From: an uncultured Acidobacteriota bacterium
GTDB lineage: Bacteria; Acidobacteriota; Thermoanaerobaculia; UBA5066; Gp7-AA6
Assembly: GCA_963815865.1 (NCBI GenBank)
Contig: CAWFIK010000003.1
Span: 283,771-347,770, forward strand
Direction of reading: 5' to 3'
Length of the DNA stretch: 64,000 bases
Part shown: one piece after another, positions 1-21,621 of the stretch
Layout: each line of letters begins with the position of its first letter
Position numbering within the stretch: position 1 is the first letter of the stretch
Notes under the pieces: model-generated
The model's database searches: none
What the model was told of the DNA's origin: nothing
What the model saw: the letters and a program-made list of their open reading frames with translations, nothing else
Position numbers and translations under genes: made by a program

Positions 1-909
1 CGTCAGCTCGTCGGTCGAGACGACGCCGGAGAGCGGAAAGCCGCCGCCGACGCCCTTGCCGACGGTCAGGATGTCGGGGACGACGCCGTCGTGGTCCACG
101 CCCCACATCTTTCCGGTCCGGCCGAAGCCGGTGATCATCTCGTCGGCGATGAGAAGAGCGCCGTGCTCCTTCGCGATCGACTGGATCGCGGGGAGAAAGC
201 CCGGCGGCGGAATGACGTTGCCCGCCGTGCCCTGCATCGGCTCGACGATCACGGCGGCGACGGCACCCGCGGTCTGATCGCGGATCACGTCGCGAGTCTT
301 CTCCGCGCAGGCGATCCCGCAGTCGGGATACGTCAGCGAGAGCGGGCAGCGGTAGCAGTAGGCGTAGGGCGCGGAGTAGCAGCCGGGCGCGAGGGGGCCG
401 AGGCCCTTCTTGAAATCGCCCCAGAGGAGCGGCAGCACGCCGCCGGTCTTGCCGTGGAACGCGCCCGTGTATCCGACGAACTCGTATTTCTTCGTCGCGG
501 ACTTGGCGAGCCGGAACGCGGCCTCGACCGCCTCGGCGCCTCCGGAGAAGAGCTGGATGCGCGTCAGACCGGGCGGCGTGACGCTCGCGAGCAGCTCCAG
601 GAACTTCGCCCGCGTCTCCGTCGTGAAGCTCCCGAAGGTCAGACGCTCGGCCTGTTCCTTCAGGCGCGCGACGTAGTGAGGGTGACAGTGGCCGACGCTC
701 CCGACCGCGATGCCGGCGATGAAATCGATGTAGCCGTTGCCGTCCTCGTCGAAGAGGCGGCTTCCCCGGCCGCGGGCCATCGCGAGGCCCGAGTAGAGCG
801 CGAAGGATTGCAACCCCGGCGCCATGTGGCGCCCCTCGTCTTCAAAGATCTTCCGCGACCGCGGCCCAACGGCGTTCCCTTTCTTCGCATTCTTCACGGC
901 GTCCGTCAT
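1..909 (-). CDS. Class-III PLP-dependent aminotransferase, partial; the C-terminus runs off the window start. Last gene of the dxs-ispH operon; HpnO-like candidate.
   Basis: The minus-strand translation from ATG at 909 reads MTDAVKNAKKGNAVGPRSRKIFEDEGRHMAPGLQSFALYSGLAMARGRGSRLFDEDGNGYIDF...GAVAAVIVEPMQGTAGNVIPPPGFLPAIQSIAKEHGALLIADEMITGFGRTGKMWGVDHDGVVPDILTVGKGVGGGFPLSGV, typical of class-III aminotransferases including the PLP-lysine region (TVGKG). There is no stop before position 1. The start overlaps the upstream stop (ATGA at 906-909). Confidence 0.85.
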   Translation of the reverse strand, partial: MTDAVKNAKKGNAVGPRSRKIFEDEGRHMAPGLQSFALYSGLAMARGRGSRLFDEDGNGYIDFIAGIAVGSVGHCHPHYVARLKEQAERLTFGSFTTETRAKFLELLASVTPPGLTRIQLFSGGAEAVEAAFRLAKSATKKYEFVGYTGAFHGKTGGVLPLLWGDFKKGLGPLAPGCYSAPYAYCYRCPLSLTYPDCGIACAEKTRDVIRDQTAGAVAAVIVEPMQGTAGNVIPPPGFLPAIQSIAKEHGALLIADEMITGFGRTGKMWGVDHDGVVPDILTVGKGVGGGFPLSGVVSTDELT

Positions 910-1793
910 TCTGGCACTCCGATCTCGACGTGTCCTCGGAACCGCGCCGCCAGGTACGAGGCGATCCGCTCCGACGCGGTGTCGCGGTAGAGGGCGAAGC
1001 TCGGCCAGGCGTTCAAGTCGATGACGATGATCCTCCCGTCGCGCGTCGCGATCGCGTCGCCGCCGTAGACCTCGAGACCCAGCGCCGCGGCCGCCTGCGA
1101 AGCGGAGCAGGCGAGTTCCTGCGGGTCGAACGGATGACCTTCCAGGTTCTGGTCCCGGTGATAGAACCACTGGAACCACCCGCCCGGCTCCCTCTCGTCC
1201 GCCGTTGCCGGGAGGCCGGCGTCCCCCACGCCGTAGAACTTGATCAGGTCTCCCTGGATGTGCTCCTGGAGGACCGCCCGCTCGATGCCGCGGGCGCGCA
1301 TCGCCGCCAGAGCCTGGGCCAGCGCCGTCGGGTCCGCCGCGAACGCGACGTCGCCCGGCTTTGTGGCATGCACATCGCCGCGCTTGACCCAGCAGCCGGT
1401 CGGCGCCTCCTTGAACGATTTGCCGATAGGAATGGGAAGGTCGGTGGGGACGAGGACGCTCGCGGGAAACGGGACGTGGCAGCTCTCGAAGAGGAGCAGT
1501 GTCCGGTCGCGGTAGGTGTTGCGGATCGACGAAGCGCTGTTGACCTGGCAGACGCCCTGCTCCTGCCACCGCTCGAGCTTCTTGAGAATCTCCAGCTGTT
1601 CGCACATGACGAAGAGGAACGGCGGCGGGTTCTCGGCGGAGGCCGTCTCCTCGGCGGTCTTCAGCGAGACGTGGAAGCCTTTGCTCTCGAGATGCCGCGC
1701 GGTGGCCTCGAGGATGCGGGCGTCGTCCGTCTCGCGCCCCGGCGAATGCGCGAGCTCGCGGTAGATGCCCCAGCAGGCCATCGCGGGCGTCAT
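906..1793 (-). CDS. ATP-grasp domain protein (RimK-like carboxylate-amine ligase family)
   Basis: Translation MTPAMACWGIYRELAHSPGRETDDARILEATARHLESKGFHVSLKTAEE...GCWVKRGDVHATKPGDVAF...ERAVLQEHIQGDLIKFYGVGD...IIVIDLNAWPSFALY shows ATP-grasp fold hallmarks. ATG at 1791-1793 overlaps the nucleotidyltransferase stop (ATGA). Stop at 906-908 overlaps the aminotransferase ATG. Confidence 0.75.
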   Translation of the reverse strand: MTPAMACWGIYRELAHSPGRETDDARILEATARHLESKGFHVSLKTAEETASAENPPPFLFVMCEQLEILKKLERWQEQGVCQVNSASSIRNTYRDRTLLLFESCHVPFPASVLVPTDLPIPIGKSFKEAPTGCWVKRGDVHATKPGDVAFAADPTALAQALAAMRARGIERAVLQEHIQGDLIKFYGVGDAGLPATADEREPGGWFQWFYHRDQNLEGHPFDPQELACSASQAAAALGLEVYGGDAIATRDGRIIVIDLNAWPSFALYRDTASERIASYLAARFRGHVEIGVPE

Positions 1794-2500
1794 CGGGACG
1801 GTCTCCGGGTCGACAGGTCCGCCGCCAGGGCGACGTCCGCCGCGCGGTCCACGTCCACGACGGTCTCGATGGAGATTCCGCGGACGGTCTCTCCGCTCTC
1901 GAGAAGCCAGGCGAGGTACTCGCGCAGACGCCCGAGGGTCGGCGGGGCGGCCGCTTCCCGCGCGCGCCGCGAGAAGCGATAGATCCCCGCGGTGACGGCG
2001 TCTCCCGAGTCTCCGCCGATTCTCGTGATTCTTCCGTCCGCGGTCTGGCGGACCCAGAGCGGCTTCTCGTCGGAGACGAACGGAGTGACGGCGAGGACCG
2101 TCTCTTCCGCAGCGGCCGTCGCGGCCCTCTCCGCGAAGCTCACGAAATCCGCGCGCGGGCACCAGGCGTCCACCGTCGAGACGAGCGCCGGTCCGGGCGG
2201 GAGCACGCCCAAGATCTCCCGATAGCTCTCGTAGGAGGAGGCCGTCGTCTTGACGAGGATCTCGATCGGAGCGTGCGGGAAGCGCGACCGGACGAAGCGC
2301 GCGCAGTCCTCTTCCCGGGCATTGAAGATGATCGCGAGTGTCTCGACTCCCGCGGCGAGGAGATTCCCGACGGCGTGCTCGATCAATCGAACGCCCTCGA
2401 TCGGCACGAGGGGCTTCGCCATTTCCCATCCGTCCTCGCGCAGCCGGCTCCCGTCTCCCGCCGCGATGATGCCTCCCGCGCGGATTCCGGCGGGACTCAC
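1790..2500 (-). CDS. Sugar-phosphate nucleotidyltransferase (NTP_transferase family)
   Basis: GTG start at 2498-2500 gives MSPAGIRAGGIIAAGDGSRLRE...KPLVPIEGVRLIEHAVGNLLAAGVETLAIIFNAREED..., a G-x-G-x-R-L nucleotidyltransferase signature. The start overlaps the HAD gene stop (GTGA). Confidence 0.8.
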   Translation of the reverse strand: MSPAGIRAGGIIAAGDGSRLREDGWEMAKPLVPIEGVRLIEHAVGNLLAAGVETLAIIFNAREEDCARFVRSRFPHAPIEILVKTTASSYESYREILGVLPPGPALVSTVDAWCPRADFVSFAERAATAAAEETVLAVTPFVSDEKPLWVRQTADGRITRIGGDSGDAVTAGIYRFSRRAREAAAPPTLGRLREYLAWLLESGETVRGISIETVVDVDRAADVALAADLSTRRPSR

Positions 2501-3252
2501 AGGAACATCTCCGCGAGCTCGTCCAGGCGCCGGATCACCGGGTCCCCGGGACAGCAGGAGCGCCGTCCATTGGAATCTTCGCCGGCGAGCAGGACGTGGC
2601 GCATTCCGACAGTCCGGGCGCCGATCATGTCCCGCTCGAGGGAATCCCCGATGAAGACCGATTTCCCGGGCTCGACGGAGAGCTGCGAAAGCGCCGCGTC
2701 GAAGATCGCCCGATCGGGCTTGCGGCAGCCGACGATGGCAGAGTCCACCTCGGCGGAGAGGAGCTCATGGATCCCGATCTCCCGGCAGACGGCCGTGAGA
2801 TTCCCGTAGAAGTTCGAAACGATAGCGAGCTTGTAGCGCGGAGCGAGTCTGCGGAGAAGTCCGGCGTTGCGTGAGAGGCTCTCGAGGCAGCCGGCGCTGA
2901 AGCGCGCCGCGACGCGGGCGGCCACGGCTTCGCCGCCCGTCCCGAGACCGGCCGCGACCCCGCGGGCGAGCCGCCCGACCGTCTCCGCGAAGGGCAGCGA
3001 CGCGGGAACGGACCCTTCGATCGCGTCGTCCGCCGCGAAGAACGCCCGATCGAAGCGTTCGCGCGGGATCTCTTCCTCCTCCCGCCAGAGCCGGAAGAAT
3101 CGTTCCCGCCAGGCGATCCCCGGGCCGTCGAGCGTTCCGCCGAAGTCGAACAGCAGGGCGGTGATGCCAGATTTGTGATTTGTGATTTGTGATTTGTGAT
3201 TTGGGGATCCCGAGTCCCGAGTCCCGAGTCCCGAGTCCCGAGGTGTGGTCAC
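2497..3252 (-). CDS. HAD-superfamily hydrolase/phosphatase with a repeat-encoded N-terminal leader
   Basis: HAD motif I ITALLFDFGGTLD plus downstream RLAPRYKLAIVSNF and FIGDSLERDMIGA motifs. The only in-frame canonical start is GTG at 3250-3252, overlapping the upstream stop TGA at 3249-3251 (GTGA). This puts the heptamer arrays at 3171-3245 in frame, encoding TTPRDSGLGTRDSGSPNHKSQITNHKSG. Confidence 0.6.
   Translation of the reverse strand: MTTPRDSGLGTRDSGSPNHKSQITNHKSGITALLFDFGGTLDGPGIAWRERFFRLWREEEEIPRERFDRAFFAADDAIEGSVPASLPFAETVGRLARGVAAGLGTGGEAVAARVAARFSAGCLESLSRNAGLLRRLAPRYKLAIVSNFYGNLTAVCREIGIHELLSAEVDSAIVGCRKPDRAIFDAALSQLSVEPGKSVFIGDSLERDMIGARTVGMRHVLLAGEDSNGRRSCCPGDPVIRRLDELAEMFL
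3171..3245. repeat. Two adjacent heptamer tandem arrays: (ATTTGTG)x4 plus ATTTGGG at 3171-3205, then GATCC, then (CGAGTCC)x4 plus CGAGGTG at 3211-3245
   Basis: Directly visible. On the minus (coding) strand they read (GGGACTC)n then (CACAAAT)n. They fill the whole space between the hpnL-like stop and HAD motif I. Confidence 0.95.
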
Positions 3253-4325
3253 GACAGTCTTCTCGCGGCGACGGTTTCCCTGGCCTGCCAGTGGAAGAAG
3301 ACGAGGAGGCCGGGGACGATCCAGGCGAGCTCGCGGCCGCGCCGCGCGAGGCTGTAGGCGGCGCCGGGTCCCGCGCCCAGGCCGAGCAGCAGGAAGACGC
3401 CGACGCGGATCCCCTCCGCGCTTCCGATGCGGGCGGGAATGAAGAGGAGCATGTTGTTGAGCGCCATCGCGAGCGCCTCGACGGCGAACGCCGCGACCCA
3501 GCCCGATCCGGGGGAGAGGAGCCGCAGGATCACGTACGTCTCGACGAGACCGCCGCACCACCCGAGGAAGCACCACCCCAACGCCGCCGCGTAGCGCCCG
3601 CGATGGTTCCGGTAGAAGTCCTGAATGCGGCCGTCGAGCTCCCGGGCGGGCGCCTGAAAGCGATCGAGGCGCCGGGCGAGGAACTTCCAGCGCGCGAGCA
3701 GCCGGAGCACCGGCGAGTAGGTCCCGCGGCGCAGGCCCCAGGTCATGAGAGCGAGGAGGACGCCGAGACCGGCCGCGCCCGCGAGCGCCGCGAGCCGCGC
3801 CGCGAGCGGCATCGGGAACCGCCAGAGGGCGGCGCCGACGCCGAGCGTCACGAAGACCCACTGCGCCGCGAGGTCTGCATGCTTGTGAACGGTGAGGGTG
3901 CCGATCGTCCTCGCCGTCTCCGAGGCGCCGAGCAGCATGCGGGCCTTCAGCGGCTCTCCGGCCACTCCACCGGGCGCGAGGTAGTTGAAGGAGTCTCCTG
4001 CCAGATAGACGCCGAAGAGTCGGACGAATCCGGGACGTCGGGACGGGTTGAAGATCACCCACCAGCCGAGCGCGAACGCGGCCTGCGCCGCGGCGTACAG
4101 GACGACGAGGAGCGCGAACCAGCCGCCGATCCGCGCGAGGTTCGACGCGATAGCCGGCCACCCCACCGACCGGAAGAGGAGGGCGAAGAGCGCGAGGCCG
4201 GCGAGGAGCAGCGCGAATCGAACGGCTTCCCGGCCTCCGAATCGGCGGCGCCGGGGCGGCGGCAGGGCTTCGCCCGGGGCGAGGTCTCCCGCCTCGTTGC
4301 GATCGAGTTGCGACCCGGCCGTCAC
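3249..4325 (-). CDS. UPF0104 (lysyl-PG-synthase-TM-like, flippase-like) membrane protein; the family of hopanoid-associated HpnL
   Basis: A 358-aa polytopic membrane protein, MTAGSQLDRNEAGDL...FALLLAGLALFALLFRSVGWPAIASNLARIGGWFALLVVLYAAAQ...LNNMLLFIPARIGSAEG. It sits between ispH and the HAD gene in the same operon, the position HpnL takes in hopanoid clusters. Confidence 0.7.
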   Translation of the reverse strand: MTAGSQLDRNEAGDLAPGEALPPPRRRRFGGREAVRFALLLAGLALFALLFRSVGWPAIASNLARIGGWFALLVVLYAAAQAAFALGWWVIFNPSRRPGFVRLFGVYLAGDSFNYLAPGGVAGEPLKARMLLGASETARTIGTLTVHKHADLAAQWVFVTLGVGAALWRFPMPLAARLAALAGAAGLGVLLALMTWGLRRGTYSPVLRLLARWKFLARRLDRFQAPARELDGRIQDFYRNHRGRYAAALGWCFLGWCGGLVETYVILRLLSPGSGWVAAFAVEALAMALNNMLLFIPARIGSAEGIRVGVFLLLGLGAGPGAAYSLARRGRELAWIVPGLLVFFHWQARETVAARRLS

Positions 4326-4334
4326 GTTTTCCGC

Positions 4335-5327
4335 CTAGAGAAGGTCGGGCCGGCTCGACTTCAAGAGGTCTTTGAGCTCGATCGGGAGCGGGAAGTTCAC
4401 GTCCTCCTGCACCGTCTCGAACTCCTCGACGGTCTTCACGCCGAGCTTCTCGCGCGCGTAGTCCACGACTTCCCGCACGAGGATCTCCGGCGCCGAAGCG
4501 CTTGCCGTCAGCCCGAGGACCCGCACCCCGGCGAGCCACTCCGGTTGGATATCCGTCGCCCGCTCGATCAGGTACGAAGGGATGTTGTGGGCGCGGCCGA
4601 CTTCGCAGAGGCGCAGCGAGTTCGAGCTGTTAGGCGCGCCGAGCACGAGGAGCGCGTCCACGTGCGGCGCCATCGCGCGGACCGCGTCCTGCCGGTTCTG
4701 GGTGGCGTAGCAAATGTCGCCCTTGGGAGGGCTGACCATGTTCGGGAAACGGCGCTTCAGGACCTCGACGATCTCCCGCGTGTCGTCGAGCGAGAGCGTC
4801 GTCTGGGTCAGGTAGGCCACCCGGTCGGGATCGGGAACCTCGACCGCTTCGGCTTCCTCCCGATTGCCGACGAGGCGGATCGCGCCCGGCGCCTCCCCGA
4901 GCGTCCCGATCGTCTCGTCGTGTTCCTCGTGCCCGATCAGGATGATCGTGTAGCTCTTCTTCGCGTAGTGGATCGCCTCCAGGTGCACCTTCGTGACGAG
5001 GGGGCAGGTCGCGTCGATCGTCTTGAGCTTCCTGCGCCCGGCGTCGGCGCGAACGGTGGGGGAGATGCCGTGGGCCGAATAGATGAGCCACGATCCGTCC
5101 GGCACCTCGGTGACTTCCTCGACGAAGATGGCGCCTTTCTCCCGCAGCTCGTCCACGACGTAGCGGTTGTGGATGATCTCCTTGCGCACGTAGACCGGCC
5201 CGTCGCAGACCTGCAGGGCCCGTTCCACGACGTCGATCGCGCGCACGACCCCCGCGCAGAAACCGCGCAGCCCGGCCACGAGGAGTTTTTCGACCCGCAC
5301 GGCGCCGGGCTCCGACGCTACGACCAT
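4335..5327 (-). CDS. ispH: 4-hydroxy-3-methylbut-2-enyl diphosphate reductase
   Basis: A 330-aa protein with conserved LytB/IspH blocks GFCAGVVRAI, TCPLVTKVH, ICYATQNRQ and LVLGAPNSSNS. Confidence 0.95.
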   Translation of the reverse strand: MVVASEPGAVRVEKLLVAGLRGFCAGVVRAIDVVERALQVCDGPVYVRKEIIHNRYVVDELREKGAIFVEEVTEVPDGSWLIYSAHGISPTVRADAGRRKLKTIDATCPLVTKVHLEAIHYAKKSYTIILIGHEEHDETIGTLGEAPGAIRLVGNREEAEAVEVPDPDRVAYLTQTTLSLDDTREIVEVLKRRFPNMVSPPKGDICYATQNRQDAVRAMAPHVDALLVLGAPNSSNSLRLCEVGRAHNIPSYLIERATDIQPEWLAGVRVLGLTASASAPEILVREVVDYAREKLGVKTVEEFETVQEDVNFPLPIELKDLLKSSRPDLL

Positions 5328-7268
5328 GTCACCGTCTCCACCGCCTTCTCCTCATCGCGCGACGCGGGCGCTTTCCCTCCGGGCGCCGCCAGGCGCGCGA
5401 GCTCCGGATACAGGGCGAGGACCGTCTCCACGACTCCCGCCGCGTCGAGCTTCAGGTTGGCCCGCTGGAGCGCCTGCGGGCTGTGCTCGACGAACTGGTC
5501 GGGGATCGCATGGACCCTCAACTTCTCGGACGGAAGGCCCGCCGCCTGGAAGGCCTCGAGCACGCCGCTCCCGAACCCGCCCGCCGAAAGGTGCTCTTCC
5601 AGCGTGAGGATGCGCGGCGTCATGATCGCGATCTGGCCGAGCAGCTCCCGGTCGAGCGGCTTGGCGAAGCGGGCGTCGGCGACGGCGCAATCGATCCGCC
5701 GCTCCTTGAGCATCTCCGCGGCGGCGAGGGCCACCGACACCATCGAGCCGTAGGCCAGCAGACAGACATCCTTCCCCTCGCGGAGGAGCTCTCCGCGCCC
5801 GATCGGGACCGTCTTGAGCTCCGGATCGAGATCGACGCCGACTCCGAGCCCGCGGGGATAGCGGATCGTGAACGGCCCGCCCGATTCGATCGCGGTGAAG
5901 AGGAGGTGCTGCAGCTCGTTCTCGTCCCTCGGCGCCGCGACGACCATGTTCGGCAGGGGGCGCGTGTAGGCGATGTCGAAGATCCCGTGGTGGGTCTTCC
6001 CGTCGTCGCCGACGAGGCCCGCCCGGTCCGCGCAGATCGTGACCGGGAGGTTCTGCAGGCAGACGTCGTGGATCAGCTGGTCGAACGCGCGCTGCAGGAA
6101 CGTCGAATAGATCGCGACGACCGGCTTCCATCCGGCCTTGGCCATGCCGGCCGCCATGATCACGGCGTGCTCTTCGGCGATCCCGACGTCGTACACGCGG
6201 TTGGGGAAGCGCCTCTGGACCTCGATCAGGGCGGTCCCCTCGAGCATCGCGGCGCTGATCGCGACGATCTTCTCGTCCTTCTCCATCAAGCGCAGGAGCG
6301 TCTTCGCGAAGACCTGGGAGTAGGTGTAACGCACGCCCGGGCCGGCGGCCGCCGAAGGGGTGCCCGGCTGGTGGAACCTGGAGGGGTTTTCCTCGGCCAG
6401 GGTGTAGCCGCGTCCCTTGTGCGTCAGGACGTGGACGACCACGGGCGTGCCTTCGCCGGAGATGTCCTTGACGCTCTTCAGGGCCTCGTCGAGCTCCTCC
6501 AGGTTGTGTCCGTCCACGGGTCCGATGTACTGGAGGCCCATCTCCTCCCAGATCAGGTTGGGGAAGAAGAGCCCCTCGACCGACGTCTTGACCTTGCGCG
6601 CGATCTTCCACGCTTCCTCGCCCAGGGGGAGCTTCGAGAGGAGCTTCTGTCCCGCCTCCGTCAGCTTCTGGTACTTGGGATGGAGCATCAACCGGTTGCG
6701 CCAGTGCGCGAGCCAGCCGACGTTCTCGGAGATCGACCAGCCGTTGTCGTTGAAGATCACGACGAGCCTTTTGGGCTTCAAGTGGACGATGTTGTTCAGG
6801 GCCTCGTAGCTCGGTCCCGAGGTCAGCGCGCCGTCTCCGACCACGGCGACGACGTACGGCTCTTCCGGGGCGTCCTGGAGCGCGACCGCCATCCCGAGCG
6901 CGTAGGACAGGCCCGGTCCCCGCGTGTCCTGCCGCGAGCATGTCGTGCGGGCTCTCCGCCGGCTCGGCGAAGCCGGACAGCCCGCCGGGCGTTCGAATCG
7001 TCGGGAACCGGTCCCGCCGGCCGGTCACGAGCTTGTGCGTGTAGCACTGGTTCGAGGTGTCCCAGACGATCCGGTCCTTCGGACTGTCGAACGCGCGGTG
7101 GAGGGCCAGCGTCAATTCCACGACGCCAAGGTTGGAGGCCAGGTGACCGCCGGTCCGGGTAATCGTCTCGACAATGACGTTGCGACAGTCCTGGGCGACC
7201 TCGCCCAGCTCCTCGATGCTCAAGGCCTTCAGGTCCTGAGGGCCTTCAATTTTGTCCAATCGTGACAT
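5318..7268 (-). CDS. dxs: 1-deoxy-D-xylulose-5-phosphate synthase, interrupted by a single-base frameshift near 6909-6920
   Basis: The N-terminal frame starting at 7268 reads MSRLDKIEGPQDLKALSIEELGEVAQDCRNVIVETITRTGGHLASNLGVVELTLALHRAFDSPKDRIVWDTSNQCYTHKLVTGRR...GLSGFAEPAESPHD. The C-terminal frame ending at 5318 continues LSYALGMAVALQDAPEEPYVVAVVGDGALTSG...IAEEHAV.... The frames switch in a GGG/CCC run (minus-strand ggggaccgggcctgtcc). Confidence 0.9.
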
Positions 7269-7400: not shown

Positions 7401-7473
7401 AGTGTTGCAATTCCCCGGCCGGGCGTGCAATCTCCCGTCTCGGGAGTTGGTCGAGAGGAGGTCCGGCAAGGAC

Positions 7474-8136
7474 ATGGATGGCTTCAAGATCGGGTCGGAC
7501 GAACACGCCCGTCTCTTCTGCGGGACGTTCGTCGAGACACACCGTCCGTTCCGGGCAGAGGACATCGTCTGGCCGGAGCTCGACCCGGAGAGCCTGGCGA
7601 GGTTGAAGGGCCTTCCCGTCTGGGACGAGGCGGCGCGGACCGAGGCCGCCACGGCGGTCAAGGTACAGACTCTCGGGGACACCGAGACGGACCCCGTGCT
7701 CAAGGAGGCGATCGCCCTCCAGGGGTACGAAGAGGGGCGCCATGCGGAGATCATCGCCCTCTTGACGAAGGCATACGGGATCGAGACGGCACCGTTTGGC
7801 GAGCCGGAGAAGCCGAAGAACCCGACGTGGACGTTCCTGCGCACCGGCTACGGCGAGTGCCTCGATTCCTTCTTCGCGTTCGGCCTCTTCGACATCGGGC
7901 GCAAAAGCGAGTTCTTCCACAAGGACCTGATCGCGATCTTCGACCAGATCATGCAGGAGGAGGCGCGGCACATCCTTTTCATCGTGAACTGGGCGGCCTA
8001 CCTGCGCGCCCGAAAGCCGTTCCCGCTGCGGCCAGTGTTCGACGCGCGGCGCGCCTGGAACATCGTTGCCCAGGCCTTCGACCGCGTGAAGGGCGCGATG
8101 CAGATGGCGGGCGGCGGCAACGGGAGACGGCGGTGA
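7474..8136 (+). CDS. Ferritin-like diiron-carboxylate protein (two E-x-x-H motifs)
   Basis: ATG at 7474 is preceded by GAGGAGG. The 220-aa product MDGFKIGSDEHARLF...YEEGRHAEIIALL...IMQEEARHILFIVNWAAY carries two EExxH motifs about 80 aa apart. It is transcribed divergently from dxs. Confidence 0.6.
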   Translation: MDGFKIGSDEHARLFCGTFVETHRPFRAEDIVWPELDPESLARLKGLPVWDEAARTEAATAVKVQTLGDTETDPVLKEAIALQGYEEGRHAEIIALLTKAYGIETAPFGEPEKPKNPTWTFLRTGYGECLDSFFAFGLFDIGRKSEFFHKDLIAIFDQIMQEEARHILFIVNWAAYLRARKPFPLRPVFDARRAWNIVAQAFDRVKGAMQMAGGGNGRRR

Positions 8137-8173
8137 GAAGAATGAGAAGAAGGGGACACAAGACGGATTCACG

Positions 8174-8380
8174 TTGAAGAGCCACTCGGCCTTCGGCGAC
8201 TTCAAACTGCGCTCGTTCCTGGAGCTCTGCCTGGCCGAGAACGAGCGGCGCCTCTCGCCATACGACCCGCGGCTCCTCCGCCCGACGCTCGTCCCCGGGT
8301 TCGTGCGGCGCTTCGTGAAGGTCTTGCCGAAGTCCAGGCCGGGACGCGGGACTCGGGACGCGGGACTCGAGCCAAGGTGA
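8174..8380 (+). CDS. Uncertain 68-aa ORF (TTG start) whose C-terminus is encoded by the (GGGACGC/GGGACTC) heptamer array
   Basis: Translation MKSHSAFGDFKLRSFLELCLAENERRLSPYDPRLLRPTLVPGFVRRFVKVLPKSRPGRGTRDAGLEPR* has a plausible composition. The repeat-derived tail PGRGTRDAGLE matches the repeat-derived HAD leader PRDSGLGTRDSGS. It is in the same frame as the downstream 8423 gene, separated by TGA at 8378-8380. Confidence 0.2.
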   Translation: MKSHSAFGDFKLRSFLELCLAENERRLSPYDPRLLRPTLVPGFVRRFVKVLPKSRPGRGTRDAGLEPR

Positions 8381-8420
8381 TCGTTCCGAGTTCCGAGTTC
8401 CGAGTCCCGGGTCCCGACTA
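8341..8420. repeat. Two heptamer arrays: (GGGACGC/GGGACTC)x4 at 8341-8368, a 17-nt spacer, then (CCGAGTT/CCGAGTC/CCGGGTC)x5 at 8386-8420, ending 2 nt before ATG 8423
   Basis: Directly visible. The first array uses the same GGGACTC unit as 3211-3245, in the same orientation relative to the downstream gene. Confidence 0.95.
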
Positions 8421-8422
8421 GG

Positions 8423-9586
8423 ATGGGAAACGACCTCGTCAGCGCCTGCGTTTTCTGCGCGGGCCTGCTTCTGGGGCTCGAGCTGCCGCCCCCCCCGGGC
8501 TACCACGCCGAGGTCGGGTTCTCCTATGCGACCGCGGCCCGGCGCTATCGGACGCCGGACGGGCTCGACGATGTTTCGGACGTCACGCCCAAGTTCGCCC
8601 TGGTCGGTTTCGGCTGGAATCGTCCGCCGGCCGCGGGACTGGGGGCCGGGACTCCCGAGGCGGAGTGGCGGGCGCGCGTCGCGCTCGGGCCCTCCCACGA
8701 CGAGCAGTCACAGGCCCCGCTGGCGATCACGAACACCAACGCGACCGGGACGGGGCGCTTCGAGAACTACGCGGTCGTTCTGCGTTACCCGTTCTCCTCG
8801 CGCGATTCCGTCGAGGTGGGTCTGACGCGGCGCTATCACTCCTCGACCGACGAGATCGACATCGGCCAGGAGCGCTTCGTGCTCTCCGAAACGCGAGTGC
8901 TGGCGGCCGAGCGAGTGGACGCCGGGATCGGGTGGAGGCACCGCTGGCCCGGGTTCGAAGCCGCGCTGTCGGAGCGCTACGTCCGGCCCAACGGCAGCAA
9001 CGCGACGGCCGGCGCCTTCCACATCACCGAGGGGCACCTCTGGGGCGGGACGGCGGAGGCGCGGGCGCGTTGGAAGGGATGGACGTTTTCCGGCTCCGCC
9101 GAATACGCCAGCGGCTCGCTCTCCGTCCACGAGGAGAACCAGCCGAACTTCGCGCCGCGCAACTTCGACGCGAAGGCGACGCTCGAGACCTACCGGCTGG
9201 GAGTCGGTCTCCTCCTCGGAAAGAGGGACTTTTTCCTGCAGGCGGCCTACGATCGTTCCCGCCTTCCGTTCGTGTCCCTCGCGGTCCTCGGCAGCGAGAT
9301 CGCGGCGTTCGAGTCGGGCTACCACCCGGATGCCCGCGCGCGCGTCGTCCTCTGGGACCTGACGGCGCGGCACGAGTTCGCGCCCGGCTTCCGCTTCAAG
9401 CTGCTCCTGCGCACCTCCCGCGGGGACGAGACGCTGACTCTGACGGATGCCTCCGGCGTCCTCCCTTCGCGACAGCTCGACGTCAAGCGGTCGGGCGTTT
9501 TCGGCGCCGGCCTCTCCCGCGCCCTCGGCAGCCCGGAGGCGACCCTCGGCTTCGGAGTGGAGCTTTCGCTGCCCGTCGCGAAGTGA
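8423..9586 (+). CDS. Hypothetical secreted/outer-membrane beta-barrel-like protein
   Basis: The 387-aa product has an N-terminal hydrophobic segment MGNDLVSACVFCAGLLLGLELPPPPG. It has alternating amphipathic, Gly/Tyr/Arg-rich beta-strand-like composition, and strong third-position GC periodicity. Confidence 0.5.
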   Translation: MGNDLVSACVFCAGLLLGLELPPPPGYHAEVGFSYATAARRYRTPDGLDDVSDVTPKFALVGFGWNRPPAAGLGAGTPEAEWRARVALGPSHDEQSQAPLAITNTNATGTGRFENYAVVLRYPFSSRDSVEVGLTRRYHSSTDEIDIGQERFVLSETRVLAAERVDAGIGWRHRWPGFEAALSERYVRPNGSNATAGAFHITEGHLWGGTAEARARWKGWTFSGSAEYASGSLSVHEENQPNFAPRNFDAKATLETYRLGVGLLLGKRDFFLQAAYDRSRLPFVSLAVLGSEIAAFESGYHPDARARVVLWDLTARHEFAPGFRFKLLLRTSRGDETLTLTDASGVLPSRQLDVKRSGVFGAGLSRALGSPEATLGFGVELSLPVAK

Positions 9587-9620
9587 TGTCGGAGATAATC
9601 CGTCTGCAACGGTGAGCTGC

Positions 9621-11216
9621 GTGAGGCGGATCCTCTGCGTCTTTCCCCGCTACGCCCGGTCGTTCGGGACGCTGCACCACGCCTACCCGCTCCTGCCGCG
9701 CGTGCGCGCCTTCATGCCGCCGCAGGGGCTCCTCCTGATCGCGGCCGCGCTGCCGGCCGGCTGGGAGGTCCGCTTCGTGGACGAGAACATGTCGGCGGCG
9801 CGCACCGAGGACTTCGCCTGGGCGGACGCGGTCTTCGTGACCGGCATGCACGTGCAGCGCGACTGCATCAACGACGTCAACGAGCGGGCGCACGCCGCCG
9901 GCAAGGTCACGGCGCTCGGAGGCCCCTCCGTCTCCGCGTCTCCCGAGTGGTACCCGGAATTCGACATCCTCCACATCGGGGAGCTGGGCGACGCGACGCG
10001 CGCTCTCTACGCGCGCCTGGACGAGACCGTCGAGCGGCCACTCGAGCAGATCCGCTTCACTACCGCGGACCGGACGCCGCTGACGGACTTTCCGACGCCC
10101 GCCTATCACCTGATCGACATCAAGCACTACTTCCTGGCGAGCGTGCAGTTCTCGAGCGGCTGTCCCTACCGCTGCGAGTTCTGCGACATCCCGGAGCTCT
10201 ACGGCAGGAACCCCCGATTGAAGAGCCCCGAGCAGGTCTGCCGCGAGCTCGACGCGATCGTCGCCGCGGGCCCTCCCGGCGCGATCTACTTCGTGGATGA
10301 CAACTTCATCGGCAACCAGAAGGCCACGCTCGAATTGCTGCCGCACCTCGTCGAATGGCAGCGGCGCACCGGCTACCGCGTTCGCTTCGCCTGCGAGGCG
10401 ACGCTGAACATCGCGCAGAACCGGAAGGTCCTGGAGCTCATGAGGGAGGCGTTCTTTCACACGGTGTTCATCGGCATCGAGACGCCGGACCCGGAAGCAC
10501 TGCGCGGGATGGTGAAGGACCAGAACCTTCGCCTTCCGATCCTGGAGGCCGTCGAGATCCTGAACTCCTACGGAATGGAGGTCGTCTCCGGGATCATCCT
10601 GGGACTCGATCAGGACACCGAGCATACGGCCGACGACATCCTGGCCTTCATCGAGGCGTCGAAGATCCCGATGCTCACGATCAATCTCCTGTACGCGCTC
10701 CCCAGGACCCCGCTCTGGCGCCGGCTGGAGAAGGAGGGCCGGATCCTCTCGGACGGAACCGGCGGAGAGGAGTCCAACGTCCAGTTCCTTCTCCCGCGAG
10801 ACGTCGTGCGGAGCAGCTGGTTGAAGTGCGTGGCGGAATCGAACAAGCCGGAACCGCTCTACCGCCGCTTCCAGCACCAGATCGAGAAGACCTATCCCAA
10901 CCGTTTCAACCCCGGCGCGCTGAGGAAGGTCGAGAGGAGCGACGTGGCCAACGGCTTCAAGATCCTCGGCCGGATCCTCTGGCGCGTGGGCCTGCGCTCA
11001 GACTACCGGAACGTCTTCTGGCGCATGGCGCGTCCGGCTTTGAAGCGCGGCGACATCGAGGCAGTCATCCACGTCGGCCTCGTCGCCCATCACCTGATCC
11101 GGTTCGCCCGCGACTGCGAGGCCGGCGTCGGCGAGTACTCCTTCTACTCCGAGAAGGGCGCCGCCTCGCGCTCCGGCTCGGCCGCCGACGTCCAGCCCGT
11201 CGGTGCCACCGGATAG
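9621..11216 (+). CDS. hpnJ: Cobalamin-binding radical SAM protein, hopanoid biosynthesis-associated HpnJ family
   Basis: Translation (M)RRILCVFPRYARSFGTLHHAYPLLP...FVTGMHVQ (B12-binding N-domain) and FSSGCPYRCEFCDIPELYG (CxxxCxxC radical-SAM cluster). It lies in the hopanoid context. The start is GTG at 9612 or 9621. Confidence 0.8.
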   Translation: MRRILCVFPRYARSFGTLHHAYPLLPRVRAFMPPQGLLLIAAALPAGWEVRFVDENMSAARTEDFAWADAVFVTGMHVQRDCINDVNERAHAAGKVTALGGPSVSASPEWYPEFDILHIGELGDATRALYARLDETVERPLEQIRFTTADRTPLTDFPTPAYHLIDIKHYFLASVQFSSGCPYRCEFCDIPELYGRNPRLKSPEQVCRELDAIVAAGPPGAIYFVDDNFIGNQKATLELLPHLVEWQRRTGYRVRFACEATLNIAQNRKVLELMREAFFHTVFIGIETPDPEALRGMVKDQNLRLPILEAVEILNSYGMEVVSGIILGLDQDTEHTADDILAFIEASKIPMLTINLLYALPRTPLWRRLEKEGRILSDGTGGEESNVQFLLPRDVVRSSWLKCVAESNKPEPLYRRFQHQIEKTYPNRFNPGALRKVERSDVANGFKILGRILWRVGLRSDYRNVFWRMARPALKRGDIEAVIHVGLVAHHLIRFARDCEAGVGEYSFYSEKGAASRSGSAADVQPVGATG

Positions 11217-13051: not shown

Positions 13052-13101
13052 CCGCCCGCGGGGCGCAACAGGTCTGAAAACGAGTCTCGGCGTGGCCGCG
13101 C

Positions 13102-19897: not shown

Positions 19898-20634
19898 TCG
19901 AGTCCGTCCGCGAGGAATCGTTCGAGGAAGAGGGAAAGCTGCTTCGCGCAATCCAGGGTGCGGCGGCGCAGCCGGAAGAGGTCCGGGATCCTCGAGGGGC
20001 GGGCAAGCGCGCGAGCGACGACGGCGCCGCGGCGAATCGCGCCGTCCTCGCCCAGGCACTCGGCGAGGTACTCGGGCAGGCCCTCGTCCGCGCCGTCGCT
20101 GATCGAACGGACGACGACGTAGGGGATGCCGCGCGAGGCGGCCACGCGCGCCCAGGCGGCCGATTCCATGTCCACGGCGCAGACGCCTTCGAGGGTCGCG
20201 GCCAGCCGCGTCTTCTCGGCCGCGGACGTGACCGGCCTCCCGACCGTCAGGAGCGTGCCCTCCTCCGCGCCGGCCTCGAGGGCCCGGGAAAGGAGGCGGG
20301 CGTCGGGCGCTGGCGCCTCCCCGGCGGAGTCGCGGATGCGTTTGCCGGCGACGATCGCGCCGACGCCGAGCCCGGGGGAGAGAGCCCCGGCGATGCCGGC
20401 GCCGACGACGGCCTGCGGGCGCGTCCGCTCGCAGAAGGACTCCGCTCTCTCGCCCGCCCTCTCCGGACCGTCTCCCGTCGCCGCGATGACGACGTCCGTC
20501 GTTCCGAGCTGCGCGCCGATGACGCCTCTCCACTGGTAATGGATCCGCGAGGCGCGCCGGAGGATCGCGTTCAAGTCGAGCTCCTCGGAGATCGCCGTCA
20601 GGATGAGGACCCCGTTCGGCCTATCCGCGGACAT
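19894..20634 (-). CDS. hpnG: Hopanoid-associated phosphorylase/nucleosidase (PNP/MTAN family)
   Basis: The 246-aa product is MSADRPNGVLILTAISEELDL...VIAATGDGPERAG...VCAVDMESAAWARVAASRGIPYVVVRSISD, a nucleoside phosphorylase fold. It sits between hpnA and the squalene synthase-like gene. Confidence 0.8.
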   Translation of the reverse strand: MSADRPNGVLILTAISEELDLNAILRRASRIHYQWRGVIGAQLGTTDVVIAATGDGPERAGERAESFCERTRPQAVVGAGIAGALSPGLGVGAIVAGKRIRDSAGEAPAPDARLLSRALEAGAEEGTLLTVGRPVTSAAEKTRLAATLEGVCAVDMESAAWARVAASRGIPYVVVRSISDGADEGLPEYLAECLGEDGAIRRGAVVARALARPSRIPDLFRLRRRTLDCAKQLSLFLERFLADGLE

Positions 20635-21607: not shown

Positions 21608-21621
21608 CGGGGAAGTCTAGG

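What the first reader, a model, noticed from the sequence alone, without database searches (positions are those of the whole stretch)
1..7268. Seven-gene translationally coupled operon: dxs, ispH, HpnL-like, then HAD, nucleotidyltransferase, ATP-grasp, class-III aminotransferase
All seven genes are on the minus strand with junctions of -10, +9, -4 (GTGA), -4 (GTGA), -4 (ATGA) and -4 (ATGA) nt. dxs, ispH and the HpnL-like gene are standard members of hopanoid clusters (established for HpnL-family, IspH and Dxs co-localisation). The last four genes are not part of the described hpn gene set. A class-III aminotransferase is what HpnO is, the enzyme that forms 35-aminobacteriohopanetriol. An ATP-grasp ligase co-transcribed with it is a plausible catalyst for the amide bond in N-acyl (ornithinyl or tryptophanyl) aminobacteriohopanetriols, whose biosynthetic genes are unknown. 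The nucleotidyltransferase plus HAD phosphatase pair suggests a nucleotide-activated polar head group. This is inference from gene content and operon structure only.
Basis: inference. Interest (0 to 1): 0.6.

Follow-up and report, generated by a model that had tools for sequence, protein, structure and literature searches.

The report
Inositol head-group operon beside hopanoid genes
The "extra" genes after dxs and ispH begin a conserved eight-gene operon, cut off by the window edge, that most likely builds a modified (amino)inositol-phosphate head group for a membrane lipid; it often sits beside hopanoid genes in uncultured soil bacteria, and I found no described product.

Summary
The seven minus-strand genes and their junctions (-10, +9, -4, -4, -4, -4) are real. 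Three corrections apply. dxs carries a one-base insertion (frameshift) in this assembly. The "HpnL-like" gene scores below the HpnL cut-off. The aminotransferase is cut by the window edge.

Relatives, and short contigs matching this organism, show the operon continues with a Gfo/Idh/MocA oxidoreductase, an AF2299/DIPPS-like CDP-alcohol phosphotransferase and myo-inositol-1-phosphate synthase. The conserved unit is eight genes: flippase-like membrane protein, HAD, nucleotidyltransferase, ATP-grasp, aminotransferase, oxidoreductase, CDP-alcohol transferase, MIPS. ATP-grasp relatives occur in 386 species genomes; the 80 best loci are all MAGs from Acidobacteriota, Methylomirabilota/Rokubacteria, Nitrospirota and Binatia.

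This points to an inositol or aminocyclitol phosphate head-group pathway, not an HpnO-type aminobacteriohopanetriol pathway. The aminotransferase belongs to a different class-III subgroup from a hopanoid-cluster aminotransferase.

The link to hopanoid genes is real but not universal. It holds here (shc-hpnH-hpnA-hpnG-sqs lie 12-17 kb away), in Methylomirabilales (shc/hpnN/hpnM adjacent) and in one Nitrospirota MAG. It is absent in the Nitrospiraceae locus whose flanks I annotated.

The lipid anchor, the ATP-grasp substrate and the role of the non-canonical HAD are unresolved. I found no paper describing the cassette.

The parts
5318..7268 (-). dxs (1-deoxy-D-xylulose-5-phosphate synthase), interrupted by a +1 frameshift near 6893-6912
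   Evidence: DXP_synthase_N, Transket_pyr and Transketolase_C domains; TIGR00204 548 bits against cut-off 466 for the C-terminal 524 aa. One extra base relative to every relative aligned.
4335..5327 (-). ispH (HMBPP reductase), 330 aa; overlaps the dxs stop by 10 nt
   Evidence: PF02401 298 bits; TIGR00216 316 bits against cut-off 188.
3249..4325 (-). Flippase-like membrane protein (LPG_synthase_TM family), 358 aa; first gene of the conserved cassette
   Evidence: PF03706 96 bits. HpnL model TIGR03476 123 bits, below the cut-off of 195.65. It precedes HAD-NT-grasp in the Acidobacteriota, Methylomirabilales and Nitrospiraceae loci, including those without dxs/ispH; in Rokubacteria-type loci it lies elsewhere in the locus.
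2497..3252 (-). HAD-superfamily hydrolase, 251 aa, with a non-canonical motif I (FDFGGTL)
   Evidence: PF00702, PF13242 and PF13419. Asp+2 is replaced by Gly in 71/71 homologues. Nearest solved structures are uncharacterised HADs and HDHD3.
1790..2500 (-). Nucleotidyltransferase, 236 aa, carrying AAGDGSRL and KPL motifs
   Evidence: PF12804 35 bits against cut-off 27, plus PF00483. Weak hits to sugar-1-phosphate and polyol-phosphate nucleotidyltransferases, including IPCT/DIPPS. 31% identity over 80 aa to the IPCT domain of L031.
906..1793 (-). ATP-grasp enzyme of an undescribed family, 295 aa
   Evidence: No Pfam hit. Profile against PDB: RimK 1.3e-7. AlphaFold pLDDT 86, pTM 0.85; Foldseek top 50 hits are Ddl, PsnB, RimK, VanA and LysX. 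K137, D246, D259 and N261 are invariant in 47 sequences. At least 2,500 relatives in metagenomes.
1..909 (-). Class-III aminotransferase, N-terminal 303 of about 441 aa; cut by the window edge
   Evidence: PF00202 235 bits. The PLP-lysine motif TVGKGVGGG is present. 95% identical to the full-length genes in L004 and L005, and 75-79% identical to those of Nitrospirota and Methylomirabilis.
19001..24650 (-). Context: hopanoid core operon shc, hpnH-like, hpnA, hpnG-like, sqs-like; the near end lies about 12 kb and the far end about 17 kb upstream of dxs
   Evidence: shc TIGR01507 687 bits against cut-off 431. hpnA TIGR03466 475 bits against 368. hpnG-like 134 bits, below the cut-off of 187. hpnH-like and sqs-like found by tblastn.
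7402..11216 (+). Context: divergent conserved trio orf244, orf387 and a B12-binding radical SAM protein with DUF4070
   Evidence: No family hit for the first two genes. The radical SAM protein is not HpnJ or HpnR (60 bits or less against cut-offs of 578-650). The first two genes are syntenic next to dxs in many Acidobacteriota loci and the radical SAM gene in seven of them.

Best explanation
Window positions 1-4325 hold the first five genes of a conserved eight-gene operon. [quoted passage not shown] In Acidobacteriota this operon is fused behind dxs-ispH inside a hopanoid/MEP gene neighbourhood.

Most likely mechanism, with the strength of each step:
1. MIPS makes L-myo-inositol-1-phosphate. 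This is a strong family-level inference.
2. The nucleotidyltransferase makes a CDP-alcohol, most simply CDP-inositol as IPCT does. Moderate.
3. The membrane CDP-alcohol phosphotransferase forms a phosphodiester, releasing CMP. This joins the inositol phosphate to a membrane alcohol, or joins inositol-1-phosphate to a CDP-activated partner. The chemistry is a strong inference; the partner is unknown.
4. The oxidoreductase and aminotransferase convert one ring hydroxyl through a ketone to an amine, giving an inosamine-type head group. Moderate; this is established logic in aminocyclitol and kanosamine pathways.
5. The ATP-grasp enzyme adds a carboxylate, such as an amino acid, to the head group as an amide or ester. 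Weak to moderate.
6. The HAD enzyme removes a residual phosphate, as PIP and DIPP phosphatases do. Weak, because its motif I lacks the general-acid Asp.
7. The LPG_synthase_TM protein translocates the finished lipid, as the MprF flippase domain does. Weak.

The product is a so far undescribed polar lipid functionally tied to hopanoid-containing membranes. Whether the anchor is a bacteriohopanepolyol or a glycerolipid is open.
For: Extension of the operon:
- Syntenic relatives show HAD-NT-grasp-AT-GFO-CDPOH-MIPS with 4-nt overlaps.
- tblastn maps of 80 genome loci show the same order in most loci long enough to show it.
- CDPOH protein P0137 is listed with a longest contig of the same length (687,547 bp) as the window's own ATP-grasp P0001, and was found in the same sequencing run. 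Its short contig shows GFO-end, CDPOH, MIPS-start.

CDP-alcohol transferase:
- The full DX2DGX2AR...GX3DX3D motif is present.
- Its best NCBIfam hit is IPCT/DIPPS at 88 bits, above AIP and PIP synthases at 54 and 53 bits.
- An AlphaFold model (pLDDT 90) is closest to A. fulgidus AF2299 and IPCT-DIPPS (E about 4e-15, TM 0.65/0.79). This includes an N-terminal nucleotidyltransferase-like domain.

ATP-grasp: it is a ligase-type fold with intact ATP/Mg residues.

Aminotransferase and oxidoreductase: they are adjacent wherever the sequence reaches, and both are absent together in one nested clade.

Precedent: the same core (MIPS + NTP transferase + CDP-alcohol transferase + HAD, with an LPG-synthase-like gene nearby) was proposed, unconfirmed, as an alternative inositol-lipid pathway in Bacteroides vulgatus and Prevotella (PMC9246714).

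Hopanoid context:
- This window carries shc, hpnH-like, hpnA, hpnG-like and sqs-like.
- 46/50 Acidobacteriota loci have dxs or ispH directly upstream, and 17/50 have a hopanoid-specific gene within 10 kb.
- Methylomirabilales-type loci show hpnM-like, hpnN-like and shc followed directly by the cassette.
- Nitrospirae locus L003 has ispG and a true HpnH (553 bits) just downstream.
Against: - There is no biochemical or lipidomic evidence. All 80 best loci are MAGs, and no named isolate appeared among the listed hits.
- The HAD lacks the Asp+2 general acid in all 71 homologues, so 'phosphatase' is unsafe.
- The ATP-grasp stays intact where AT and GFO are absent. It also has a deep paralogue paired with a second CDP-alcohol transferase and no AT/GFO. 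It may therefore not act on the amine.
- The nucleotidyltransferase's substrate is not identifiable from sequence.
- The hopanoid link is not universal. Nitrospiraceae locus L023 is flanked by polyamine and radical-SAM genes, and the apparent HpnH in L050 is a generic radical SAM/SPASM protein (47 bits against cut-off 225). Rokubacteria-type loci show Mla genes, HpnN-like genes, a phosphonopyruvate-decarboxylase-like gene and a second NT/CDPOH pair; shc appears within 10 kb only in L016, an unclassified MAG with that layout.
- The continuation beyond position 1 of this exact contig was not read directly.
Confidence: 0.6

Rival explanations
1. Hopanoid-anchored product. The CDP-alcohol transferase joins phospho-(amino)inositol to the polyol side chain of bacteriohopanetetrol, or to a CDP-activated hopanoid. 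This would give a phosphodiester-linked composite hopanoid, which the flippase-like protein and HpnN/HpnM then move outward.
For: The cassette is physically linked to different hopanoid genes in different lineages. In this window the partners are shc, hpnH, hpnA, hpnG and sqs. 46/50 Acidobacteriota loci sit behind dxs or ispH. In Methylomirabilales-type loci, shc with hpnN-like and hpnM-like genes lies immediately upstream. In L003, HpnH and ispG lie downstream. The flippase-like gene is a paralogue of HpnL, whose function is unknown (preprint 10.1101/2025.07.29.667474).
Against: My searches found no paper linking hopanoids with inositol head groups. No CDP-alcohol transferase is known to use a hopanoid acceptor (my own knowledge). 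Hopanoid genes are absent from the flanks of the Nitrospiraceae locus I annotated and from the Rokubacteria-named loci. [quoted passage not shown]
Confidence: 0.28
2. Glycerolipid- or sphingolipid-anchored product. The cassette makes a phosphatidylinositol-like lipid with an aminated and acylated inositol by a Kennedy-type CDP-inositol route. The proximity to hopanoid genes reflects a shared envelope-lipid island or shared regulation only.
For: The core equals the proposed alternative inositol-lipid cluster of Bacteroides vulgatus and Prevotella. Rokubacteria-type loci place it among other head-group genes (a second NT+CDPOH, a Ppd-like enzyme) and MlaC/MlaD phospholipid-transport genes. Nitrospiraceae locus L023 has no hopanoid neighbours.
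Against: This does not explain the repeated, differently arranged adjacency to shc, hpnN, hpnH, dxs and ispH in several lineages. The Bacteroides pathway is itself unconfirmed.
Confidence: 0.3
3. The ATP-grasp is a kinase, not a ligase. It would phosphorylate an inositol phosphate or a lipid alcohol. The HAD and nucleotidyltransferase would then reposition and activate the phosphate, as in the kinase / HAD phosphatase / nucleotidyltransferase logic of NDP-heptose synthesis.
For: ITPK1-type inositol-phosphate kinases have an ATP-grasp fold and share the C-terminal IDxNAxP-type motif (E 0.009-0.03 over about 40 residues). The ATP-grasp is retained without AT/GFO and always accompanies a CDP-alcohol transferase.
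Against: The profile match to RimK is far stronger and spans 208 residues (1.3e-7). All top 50 structural neighbours are carboxylate-amine or carboxylate-alcohol ligases, with no ITPK1 among them.
Confidence: 0.15
4. Soluble product. The cassette makes a di-myo-inositol-phosphate-like compatible solute, modified by amination and acylation.
For: MIPS + cytidylyltransferase + DIPPS-like transferase + phosphatase is the four-step DIP pathway (established knowledge). The transferase is closest to IPCT/DIPPS and AF2299.
Against: DIP is known from hyperthermophiles, whereas these are soil, sediment and groundwater MAGs (my own knowledge). A flippase-like membrane protein is a conserved cassette member. 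Mla, HpnN and hopanoid neighbours point to membranes.
Confidence: 0.07
5. The aminotransferase acts like HpnO to make 35-aminobacteriohopanetriol, and the ATP-grasp N-acylates it with an amino acid.
For: The context is a hopanoid cluster, and the pair is a class-III aminotransferase with a ligase-type ATP-grasp.
Against: It ignores the co-transcribed MIPS, CDP-alcohol transferase and oxidoreductase. The aminotransferase is only 32% identical to a hopanoid-cluster aminotransferase and falls in another class-III subgroup. It is followed by the oxidoreductase wherever sequence is available, which implies a ketone made in situ. The ATP-grasp persists without the aminotransferase.
Confidence: 0.04

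Closest known systems
IPCT/DIPPS pathway for di-myo-inositol phosphate (Archaeoglobus, Thermococcales, Thermotoga), and the A. fulgidus AF2299 CDP-alcohol phosphotransferase
   Same: Both combine MIPS, a cytidylyltransferase, a membrane CDP-alcohol transferase with an N-terminal nucleotidyltransferase-like domain, and a phosphatase-type enzyme. The transferase is the best sequence match (88 bits) and the best structural match (TM 0.65/0.79).
   Different: The N-terminal domain lacks the GxGxR signature, and the active nucleotidyltransferase is a separate gene. The score is far below the family cut-off (88 against 580). This cassette adds an ATP-grasp, an aminotransferase, an oxidoreductase and a flippase-like protein. 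It occurs in environmental MAGs that are presumably mesophilic, and in a membrane-lipid context.
Putative alternative inositol-lipid cluster of Bacteroides vulgatus and Prevotella (Heaver et al. 2022, PMC9246714)
   Same: MIPS + NTP transferase + CDP-alcohol phosphatidyltransferase + HAD hydrolase, with an LPG-synthase-like gene nearby. A CDP-inositol route has been proposed for it.
   Different: That cluster is functionally unconfirmed. It has no ATP-grasp, aminotransferase or Gfo oxidoreductase, and no hopanoid neighbourhood. Orthology between the two clusters was not tested here.
HpnO (aminobacteriohopanetriol aminotransferase)
   Same: It is a class-III PLP aminotransferase encoded in a hopanoid gene neighbourhood.
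   Different: Identity to the Streptomyces hopanoid-cluster enzyme is only 32% (159 bits). The nearest solved relatives differ: GabT and DGD here, PigE, AcOAT and putrescine AT there. This aminotransferase is followed by a Gfo oxidoreductase.
HpnL (TIGR03476) and the MprF flippase domain (LPG_synthase_TM)
   Same: Same Pfam family (PF03706). It is found beside lipid head-group genes. HpnL's function is unknown.
   Different: It scores 123 bits against the HpnL cut-off of 195.65. Genomes can carry a separate HpnL-type copy, beside hpnI/K/J-like genes in one contig or beside a second DIPPS-like gene in L031. There is no C-terminal aminoacyl-transferase domain as in MprF.
Oxidoreductase + aminotransferase (+ HAD) modules of aminocyclitol and kanosamine biosynthesis (inositol to scyllo-inosose to scyllo-inosamine; NtdC/NtdA/NtdB)
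   Same: A Gfo/Idh/MocA dehydrogenase adjacent to a PLP aminotransferase, with a HAD enzyme in the same operon (recalled knowledge; the adjacency is shown).
   Different: The aminotransferases of those pathways are mostly of the DegT type, not class III. The substrate and ring position here are unknown.
RimK / Ddl / LysX / PsnB ATP-grasp ligases
   Same: The fold and the ATP/Mg-binding residues match. RimK is the best profile hit.
   Different: There is no Pfam or NCBIfam membership. The family has its own invariant motifs: HSPGRExDDA, WFxWFYHRDQ and IDxNAWPSFA. The substrates are unknown.

Membership tests
HpnL (NCBIfam TIGR03476) | Score at or above the curated cut-off of 195.65 bits | tested here: not met
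   123 bits. The cassette copy in L031 scores 116 bits, and a second copy there scores 177 bits.
HpnL (NCBIfam TIGR03476) | Member of the LPG_synthase_TM / flippase-like superfamily | tested here: met
   PF03706 96 bits against cut-off 33.
HpnO-type aminotransferase | Specific relatedness to the aminotransferase encoded in characterised-type hopanoid clusters | tested here: not met
   32% identity and 159 bits to the Streptomyces fungicidicus hopanoid-cluster aminotransferase (L086). The two have different nearest solved relatives. Calling the Streptomyces gene the HpnO orthologue rests on its position in the cluster and on my own knowledge.
HpnO-type aminotransferase | Class-III PLP fold with catalytic lysine | tested here: met
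   PF00202 235 bits; the TVGKGVGGG motif is present.
ATP-grasp superfamily | ATP-grasp fold | tested here: met
   AlphaFold pLDDT 86. Foldseek matches Ddl, PsnB, RimK and LysX at E about 1e-13 to 1e-12, TM 0.6-0.7.
ATP-grasp superfamily | Conserved ATP-binding Lys and Mg-binding Asp/Glu-x-Asn | tested here: met
   K137, D246, D259 and N261 are invariant in 47 sequences. In the RimK alignment K137, D246 and N261 align to identical residues and D259 aligns to the equivalent Glu.
ATP-grasp superfamily | Match to a curated ATP-grasp family model (Pfam or NCBIfam) | tested here: not met
   No Pfam family at E<=0.01. The only NCBIfam hit is MptN at E 0.004, 16 bits against cut-off 350.
IPCT/DIPPS (NF041135) / AF2299-like CDP-alcohol phosphotransferase | DX2DGX2AR...GX3DX3D catalytic motif | tested here: met
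   LDGCDGELARLKFQESRFGGVLDFWGD in L002. The motif residues D249, D252, G253, A256, R257, G266 and D274 are invariant and D270 nearly invariant in 45 sequences, including P0137.
IPCT/DIPPS (NF041135) / AF2299-like CDP-alcohol phosphotransferase | Two-domain architecture: N-terminal nucleotidyltransferase-like domain plus six-helix transferase domain | tested here: met
   The model of P0137 (pLDDT 90) aligns over about 400 columns to 4o6m, 4q7c and 4mnd. The N-terminal domain alone also hits GlmU, RmlA and IspD.
IPCT/DIPPS (NF041135) / AF2299-like CDP-alcohol phosphotransferase | Curated score cut-off (580 bits) and an active IPCT signature in the N-terminal domain | tested here: not met
   83-88 bits only, and only over the transferase part. 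The N-terminal consensus has no GxGxR(L).
HAD phosphatase | Motif I DxDxT, with the Asp+2 general acid/base | tested here: not met
   FDFGGTL in 65/71 homologues and LDFGGTL in 6/71. The nucleophile Asp is present, but Asp+2 is Gly.
HAD phosphatase | HAD fold motifs II-IV | tested here: met
   SNF, RKPD and GDSxxRD are conserved. PF00702 53 bits.
Nucleotidyltransferase (NTP_transf_3 / NTP_transferase) | Pfam score above cut-off, and a GxGxR signature | tested here: met
   PF12804 35.3 bits against 27; PF00483 27.9 bits against 21.2; AAGDGSRL motif.
Bacteroides vulgatus-type alternative inositol-lipid cluster | Co-located MIPS + NTP transferase + CDP-alcohol transferase + HAD | tested here: met
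   Present in most of the 80 related loci. For this organism, shown by P0137 and L087.
Bacteroides vulgatus-type alternative inositol-lipid cluster | Product is an inositol phospholipid or sphingolipid | not testable with these tools
   Needs lipid analysis. The Bacteroides pathway is itself unconfirmed.
Dxs (TIGR00204) | Single intact reading frame | tested here: not met
   +1 base at about 6905 splits the gene in this assembly. This is probably an assembly error.

The most novel reading that the evidence does not exclude
The operon makes the first phosphodiester-linked composite hopanoid. This would be a bacteriohopanepolyol carrying a phospho-inosamine (aminoinositol) head group, possibly amino-acylated by the ATP-grasp. 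It would be assembled by CDP-alcohol chemistry borrowed from the archaeal/thermophile di-inositol-phosphate pathway, and exported with HpnN/HpnM. This would define a new lipid class in abundant uncultured soil Acidobacteriota and in Methylomirabilota. It would also give the HpnL-type flippase-like proteins a first testable role.
Probability: 0.25. Interest if true: 0.85.

Novelty: new variant of a known kind. Interest (0 to 1): 0.6.

Why it matters
Hopanoid side-chain diversity underlies many geochemical biomarkers, yet the genes for most composite hopanoids are unknown. HpnL-type proteins also have no assigned function. This cassette is a conserved eight-gene head-group pathway. ATP-grasp relatives occur in 386 species-level genomes, and the 80 best loci are all from uncultured lineages of soil, groundwater and sediment. 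It combines inositol-phosphate transfer chemistry with an amination step and an ATP-dependent ligation, and it repeatedly sits next to hopanoid synthesis or transport genes.

Whichever anchor it uses, it predicts an undescribed polar lipid with calculable masses that can be searched for in existing environmental lipidomes. It also gives an independent bacterial example of the still unconfirmed CDP-inositol route proposed for gut Bacteroidota.

Tried and rejected
- Pfam and NCBIfam on the ATP-grasp gave nothing usable. A profile search against PDB and structure prediction were needed instead.
- The idea that the ATP-grasp is an ITPK1-like inositol-phosphate kinase was kept only as a minor rival. 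RimK and Ddl similarity dominates.
- I tried to read the window's own contig beyond position 1. The look-up of encoding contigs returned only short Logan contigs for P0001 and P0137. The continuation is therefore inferred from those contigs and from 86%-identical relatives.
- The apparent HpnH next to the cassette in L050 is a generic radical SAM/SPASM protein (47 bits against cut-off 225), so I dropped it.
- The B12 radical SAM gene at 9447-11216 is not HpnJ or HpnR (60 bits or less against cut-offs of 578 or more).
- Nine literature searches combining hopanoid, BHP, inositol, inosamine, CDP-inositol, ATP-grasp, HpnL and related terms found no description of the cassette.
- No named cultured organism appeared among the listed homologues, including a search seeded from Methylomirabilis.
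- PDB searches with the HAD and the nucleotidyltransferase gave only uninformative relatives.
- The sigma-70 promoter scan found nothing, which is uninformative in this phylum.

Full report
OBSERVATION

The window is 69% G+C. Real genes stand out by third-position GC of 0.8-0.93.
- dxs, 7268..5318
- ispH, 5327..4335
- an LPG_synthase_TM protein, 4325..3249
- a HAD hydrolase, 3252..2497
- a nucleotidyltransferase, 2500..1790
- a 295-aa protein, 1793..906
- a class-III aminotransferase, 909..1

The junctions are -10, +9, -4 (GTGA), -4 (GTGA), -4 (ATGA) and -4 (ATGA). No minus-strand terminator-like site lies inside the unit.

Four corrections are needed.

First, dxs is split between two frames. 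The window has one extra base in GCGGGGACCGGGCCTG compared with every relative aligned. metH at 24.8-28.3 kb is also broken into three ORFs. Many related genomes are 'MFD' MAGs, which I recall to be long-read assemblies. An assembly indel is therefore the likeliest cause.

Second, the 295-aa protein has no Pfam hit. The ATP-grasp call is still correct. A 15-sequence profile matches RimK at 1.3e-7 over residues 75-282. An AlphaFold model (pLDDT 86, pTM 0.85) has Ddl, PsnB, RimK, VanA and LysX as its top 50 neighbours. In the RimK alignment K137, D246 and N261 align to identical ATP/Mg-binding residues and D259 aligns to the equivalent Glu; all four are invariant in 47 homologues.

Third, the 'HpnL-like' protein scores 123 bits against the HpnL model, whose cut-off is 195.65.

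Fourth, the aminotransferase is cut by the window edge at codon 303 of about 441.

WHAT LIES BEYOND THE EDGE

Homologues of the ATP-grasp are numerous: at least 2,500 in the protein collection. All listed ones come from metagenomes or MAGs.

Gene maps were obtained around three relatives. These were a 76%-identical syntenic Acidobacteriota contig, a 249-kb JGI contig and a Nitrospirae contig. In each, the aminotransferase is followed, mostly with 4-nt overlaps, by three more genes: a Gfo/Idh/MocA oxidoreductase, a CDP-alcohol phosphotransferase of about 350-410 aa, and myo-inositol-1-phosphate synthase.

A scan of 185,579 species genomes found 386 with a relative. In the best 80 loci, tblastn maps give the same order in most loci long enough to show it. 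That order is flippase-like, HAD, NT, ATP-grasp, AT, GFO, CDPOH, MIPS.

For the window's own organism, the CDP-alcohol transferase P0137 is listed with a longest contig of the same length (687,547 bp) as the window's ATP-grasp P0001. It was also found in the same sequencing run. Its short contig shows the end of a GFO gene, then P0137, then 20 nt later a MIPS start that is 93-96% identical to the relatives.

The window's aminotransferase fragment is 95% identical to the full-length genes of L004 and L005.

The real unit is therefore dxs-ispH plus an eight-gene cassette. The window holds the first four and two-thirds of those eight genes.

WHAT THE PARTS ARE

CDP-alcohol transferase.
- It carries the complete DX2DGX2AR...GX3DX3D motif.
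- Its best curated match is IPCT/DIPPS (88 bits), above archaetidylinositol-phosphate synthase (54 bits) and phosphatidylinositol-phosphate synthase (53 bits).
- The model of P0137 (pLDDT 90) is closest to A. fulgidus AF2299 and IPCT-DIPPS, with E about 4e-15 and TM 0.65/0.79 over about 400 columns.
- Its N-terminal 165 residues adopt a nucleotidyltransferase-like fold but lack GxGxR.
- In L002 that N-terminal domain is duplicated at the C-terminus of the preceding oxidoreductase.

Nucleotidyltransferase. The separate gene has the AAGDGSRL and KPL signatures. Its similarities are weak and non-diagnostic: MurU, GlmU, RmlA, IspD and IPCT.

Oxidoreductase. It resembles IolG, UDP-GlcNAc 3-dehydrogenase and Gfo6 about equally.

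Aminotransferase.
- It is nearest GabT and dialkylglycine decarboxylase (257 and 240 bits).
- A Streptomyces hopanoid-cluster aminotransferase, taken as an HpnO orthologue by position, is nearest PigE, acetylornithine and putrescine aminotransferases.
- The two are only 32% identical.

HAD.
- It keeps the nucleophile Asp and motifs II-IV.
- All 71 homologues have Gly in place of the Asp+2 general acid: FDFGGTL in 65 and LDFGGTL in 6.
- Its nearest solved relatives are uncharacterised.

PATTERNS ACROSS GENOMES

AT and GFO are adjacent wherever the sequence reaches. Both are missing together in one nested clade (L013, L019/L085, L044, L051), which indicates a single loss. The ATP-grasp remains intact there.

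About nine Acidobacteriota loci carry a second, divergent set: flippase-like, HAD, grasp', CDPOH'. Its ATP-grasp forms a deep separate clade. The ATP-grasp therefore pairs with the CDP-alcohol transferase rather than strictly with the aminotransferase.

The flippase-like gene travels with the cassette where dxs and ispH are absent. It is a cassette member, not a standard hopanoid-cluster gene. One contig also has a separate LPG_synthase_TM gene beside hpnI/K/J-like genes.

HOPANOID CONTEXT

Present:
- The window has shc (687 bits), hpnH-like, hpnA (475 bits), hpnG-like and sqs-like at 19.0-24.7 kb.
- 46/50 Acidobacteriota loci have dxs or ispH directly upstream. 17/50 have a hopanoid-specific gene within the 10-kb flank.
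- Loci L021, L024, L031, L045 and L016 show hpnM-like, hpnN-like (596 bits) and shc (800 bits). In the first four, shc lies directly in front of the cassette; in L016 Mla genes lie between.
- Nitrospirae locus L003 has ispG and a true HpnH (553 bits) just after MIPS.

Absent:
- Nitrospiraceae locus L023 is flanked by polyamine and radical-SAM genes. The apparent HpnH in L050 is not one.
- Rokubacteria-type loci show MlaC/MlaD, HpnN-like genes, a phosphonopyruvate-decarboxylase-like enzyme and a second NT/CDPOH pair.

The association is strong and recurs in different arrangements, but it is not universal.

MECHANISM

The core is MIPS, nucleotidyltransferase, DIPPS-like transferase and HAD. This reproduces the logic of di-myo-inositol-phosphate synthesis. 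It also matches the unconfirmed alternative inositol-lipid cluster proposed for Bacteroides vulgatus and Prevotella, which likewise has an LPG-synthase-like neighbour (PMC9246714).

I conclude that the cassette builds an inositol-phosphate phosphodiester through a CDP-alcohol. It aminates the ring with the oxidoreductase/aminotransferase pair and modifies it with an ATP-grasp ligase. A flippase-like protein then moves the product.

What is shown:
- gene content, gene order and conservation;
- folds and catalytic motifs.

What is inferred:
- every substrate;
- the order of the steps;
- the anchor;
- the role of the HAD;
- the role of the ATP-grasp.

I put about 0.6 on the general statement. I split the anchor roughly evenly between a bacteriohopanepolyol and a glycerolipid. 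Small weights go to a soluble product or another envelope target.

COMPARISON AND NOVELTY

The cassette is not a member of the HpnO or HpnL families by the tests available. Nor does it reach the cut-off of the curated IPCT/DIPPS family, although it works like that family.

I found no paper describing it in nine searches. A 2025-26 preprint on hopanoid gene neighbourhoods states that HpnL's function is unknown and does not mention inositol.

I classify the cassette as a new variant of a known kind: CDP-alcohol/inositol-phosphate head-group pathways. It has a moderately high chance of pointing to an undescribed lipid class.

Noticed in passing
window 19001-24650 (-): A complete hopanoid core operon: shc (TIGR01507 687 bits), hpnH-like, hpnA (475 bits), hpnG-like (134 bits, below cut-off) and sqs-like. 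The mechanical ORF for shc runs on to 26771, opposite metH; that extension is spurious.
   Followed up: partly
window 24831-28303 (+) and about 6893-6912 (-): metH is split into three consecutive ORFs, and dxs carries a +1 base in a G/C run. This suggests indel errors in the assembly rather than pseudogenes.
   Followed up: partly
window 7402-11216 (+): A divergently transcribed trio: orf244, orf387 (no family hits) and a B12-binding radical SAM protein with DUF4070. The best hit for the radical SAM protein is a PhpK-type P-methyltransferase (84 bits); it is not HpnJ or HpnR. The first two genes are conserved next to dxs in many Acidobacteriota loci, the radical SAM gene in seven.
   Followed up: partly
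window 11144-14102 (-): A PMT_2 (GT-C, ArnT-like) glycosyltransferase and a SAM methyltransferase. A PMT_2 gene also follows the cassette in Rokubacteria-type loci L018 and L084.
   Followed up: no
L002 12213-13850; L005, same region: The Gfo/Idh/MocA protein is 545 aa. Its C-terminal ~165 residues duplicate the nucleotidyltransferase-like N-terminal domain of the next gene, the CDP-alcohol transferase.
   Followed up: no
L084 1446-8617; also L017, L018, L042: Rokubacteria-type loci place several genes directly in front of CDPOH-HAD-NT-grasp-AT-GFO. These are MlaD/MlaC, a phosphonopyruvate-decarboxylase-like TPP enzyme (308 bits against cut-off 312.5), a second NT + CDP-alcohol transferase, a flippase-like gene and a short MIPS. 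No PEP mutase was seen.
   Followed up: partly
L031 16574-19055: In a Methylomirabilales MAG, the cassette is followed by a bifunctional IPCT/DIPPS-like protein (497 aa, 243 bits) and a second flippase-like gene that is closer to HpnL (177 bits).
   Followed up: partly
L002 16507-20225; L085 13415-14577: After MIPS, Acidobacteriota loci encode a membrane-fusion protein, a MacB/FtsX-type permease and an outer-membrane factor. This may be an export system for the product.
   Followed up: no
L086 1-2035 (Streptomyces fungicidicus plasmid p1): A classical Streptomyces hopanoid cluster is preceded by an Fe-alcohol dehydrogenase family protein, a CDP-alcohol phosphatidyltransferase and a glycosyltransferase.
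   Followed up: no
window 909..1 against L003 and L021: The aminotransferase is far more conserved between phyla (75-79% identity) than its operon neighbours (51-60%).
   Followed up: no
window 49533-58289 (-): A single 2,918-codon ORF with GC3 of 0.93. I did not examine it.
   Followed up: no
L078 (DATIWG010000096.1): One cassette-bearing contig is binned as the archaeon Nitrosotalea sp. Its ATP-grasp clusters with Rokubacteria-type sequences, so it is probably mis-binned.
   Followed up: no
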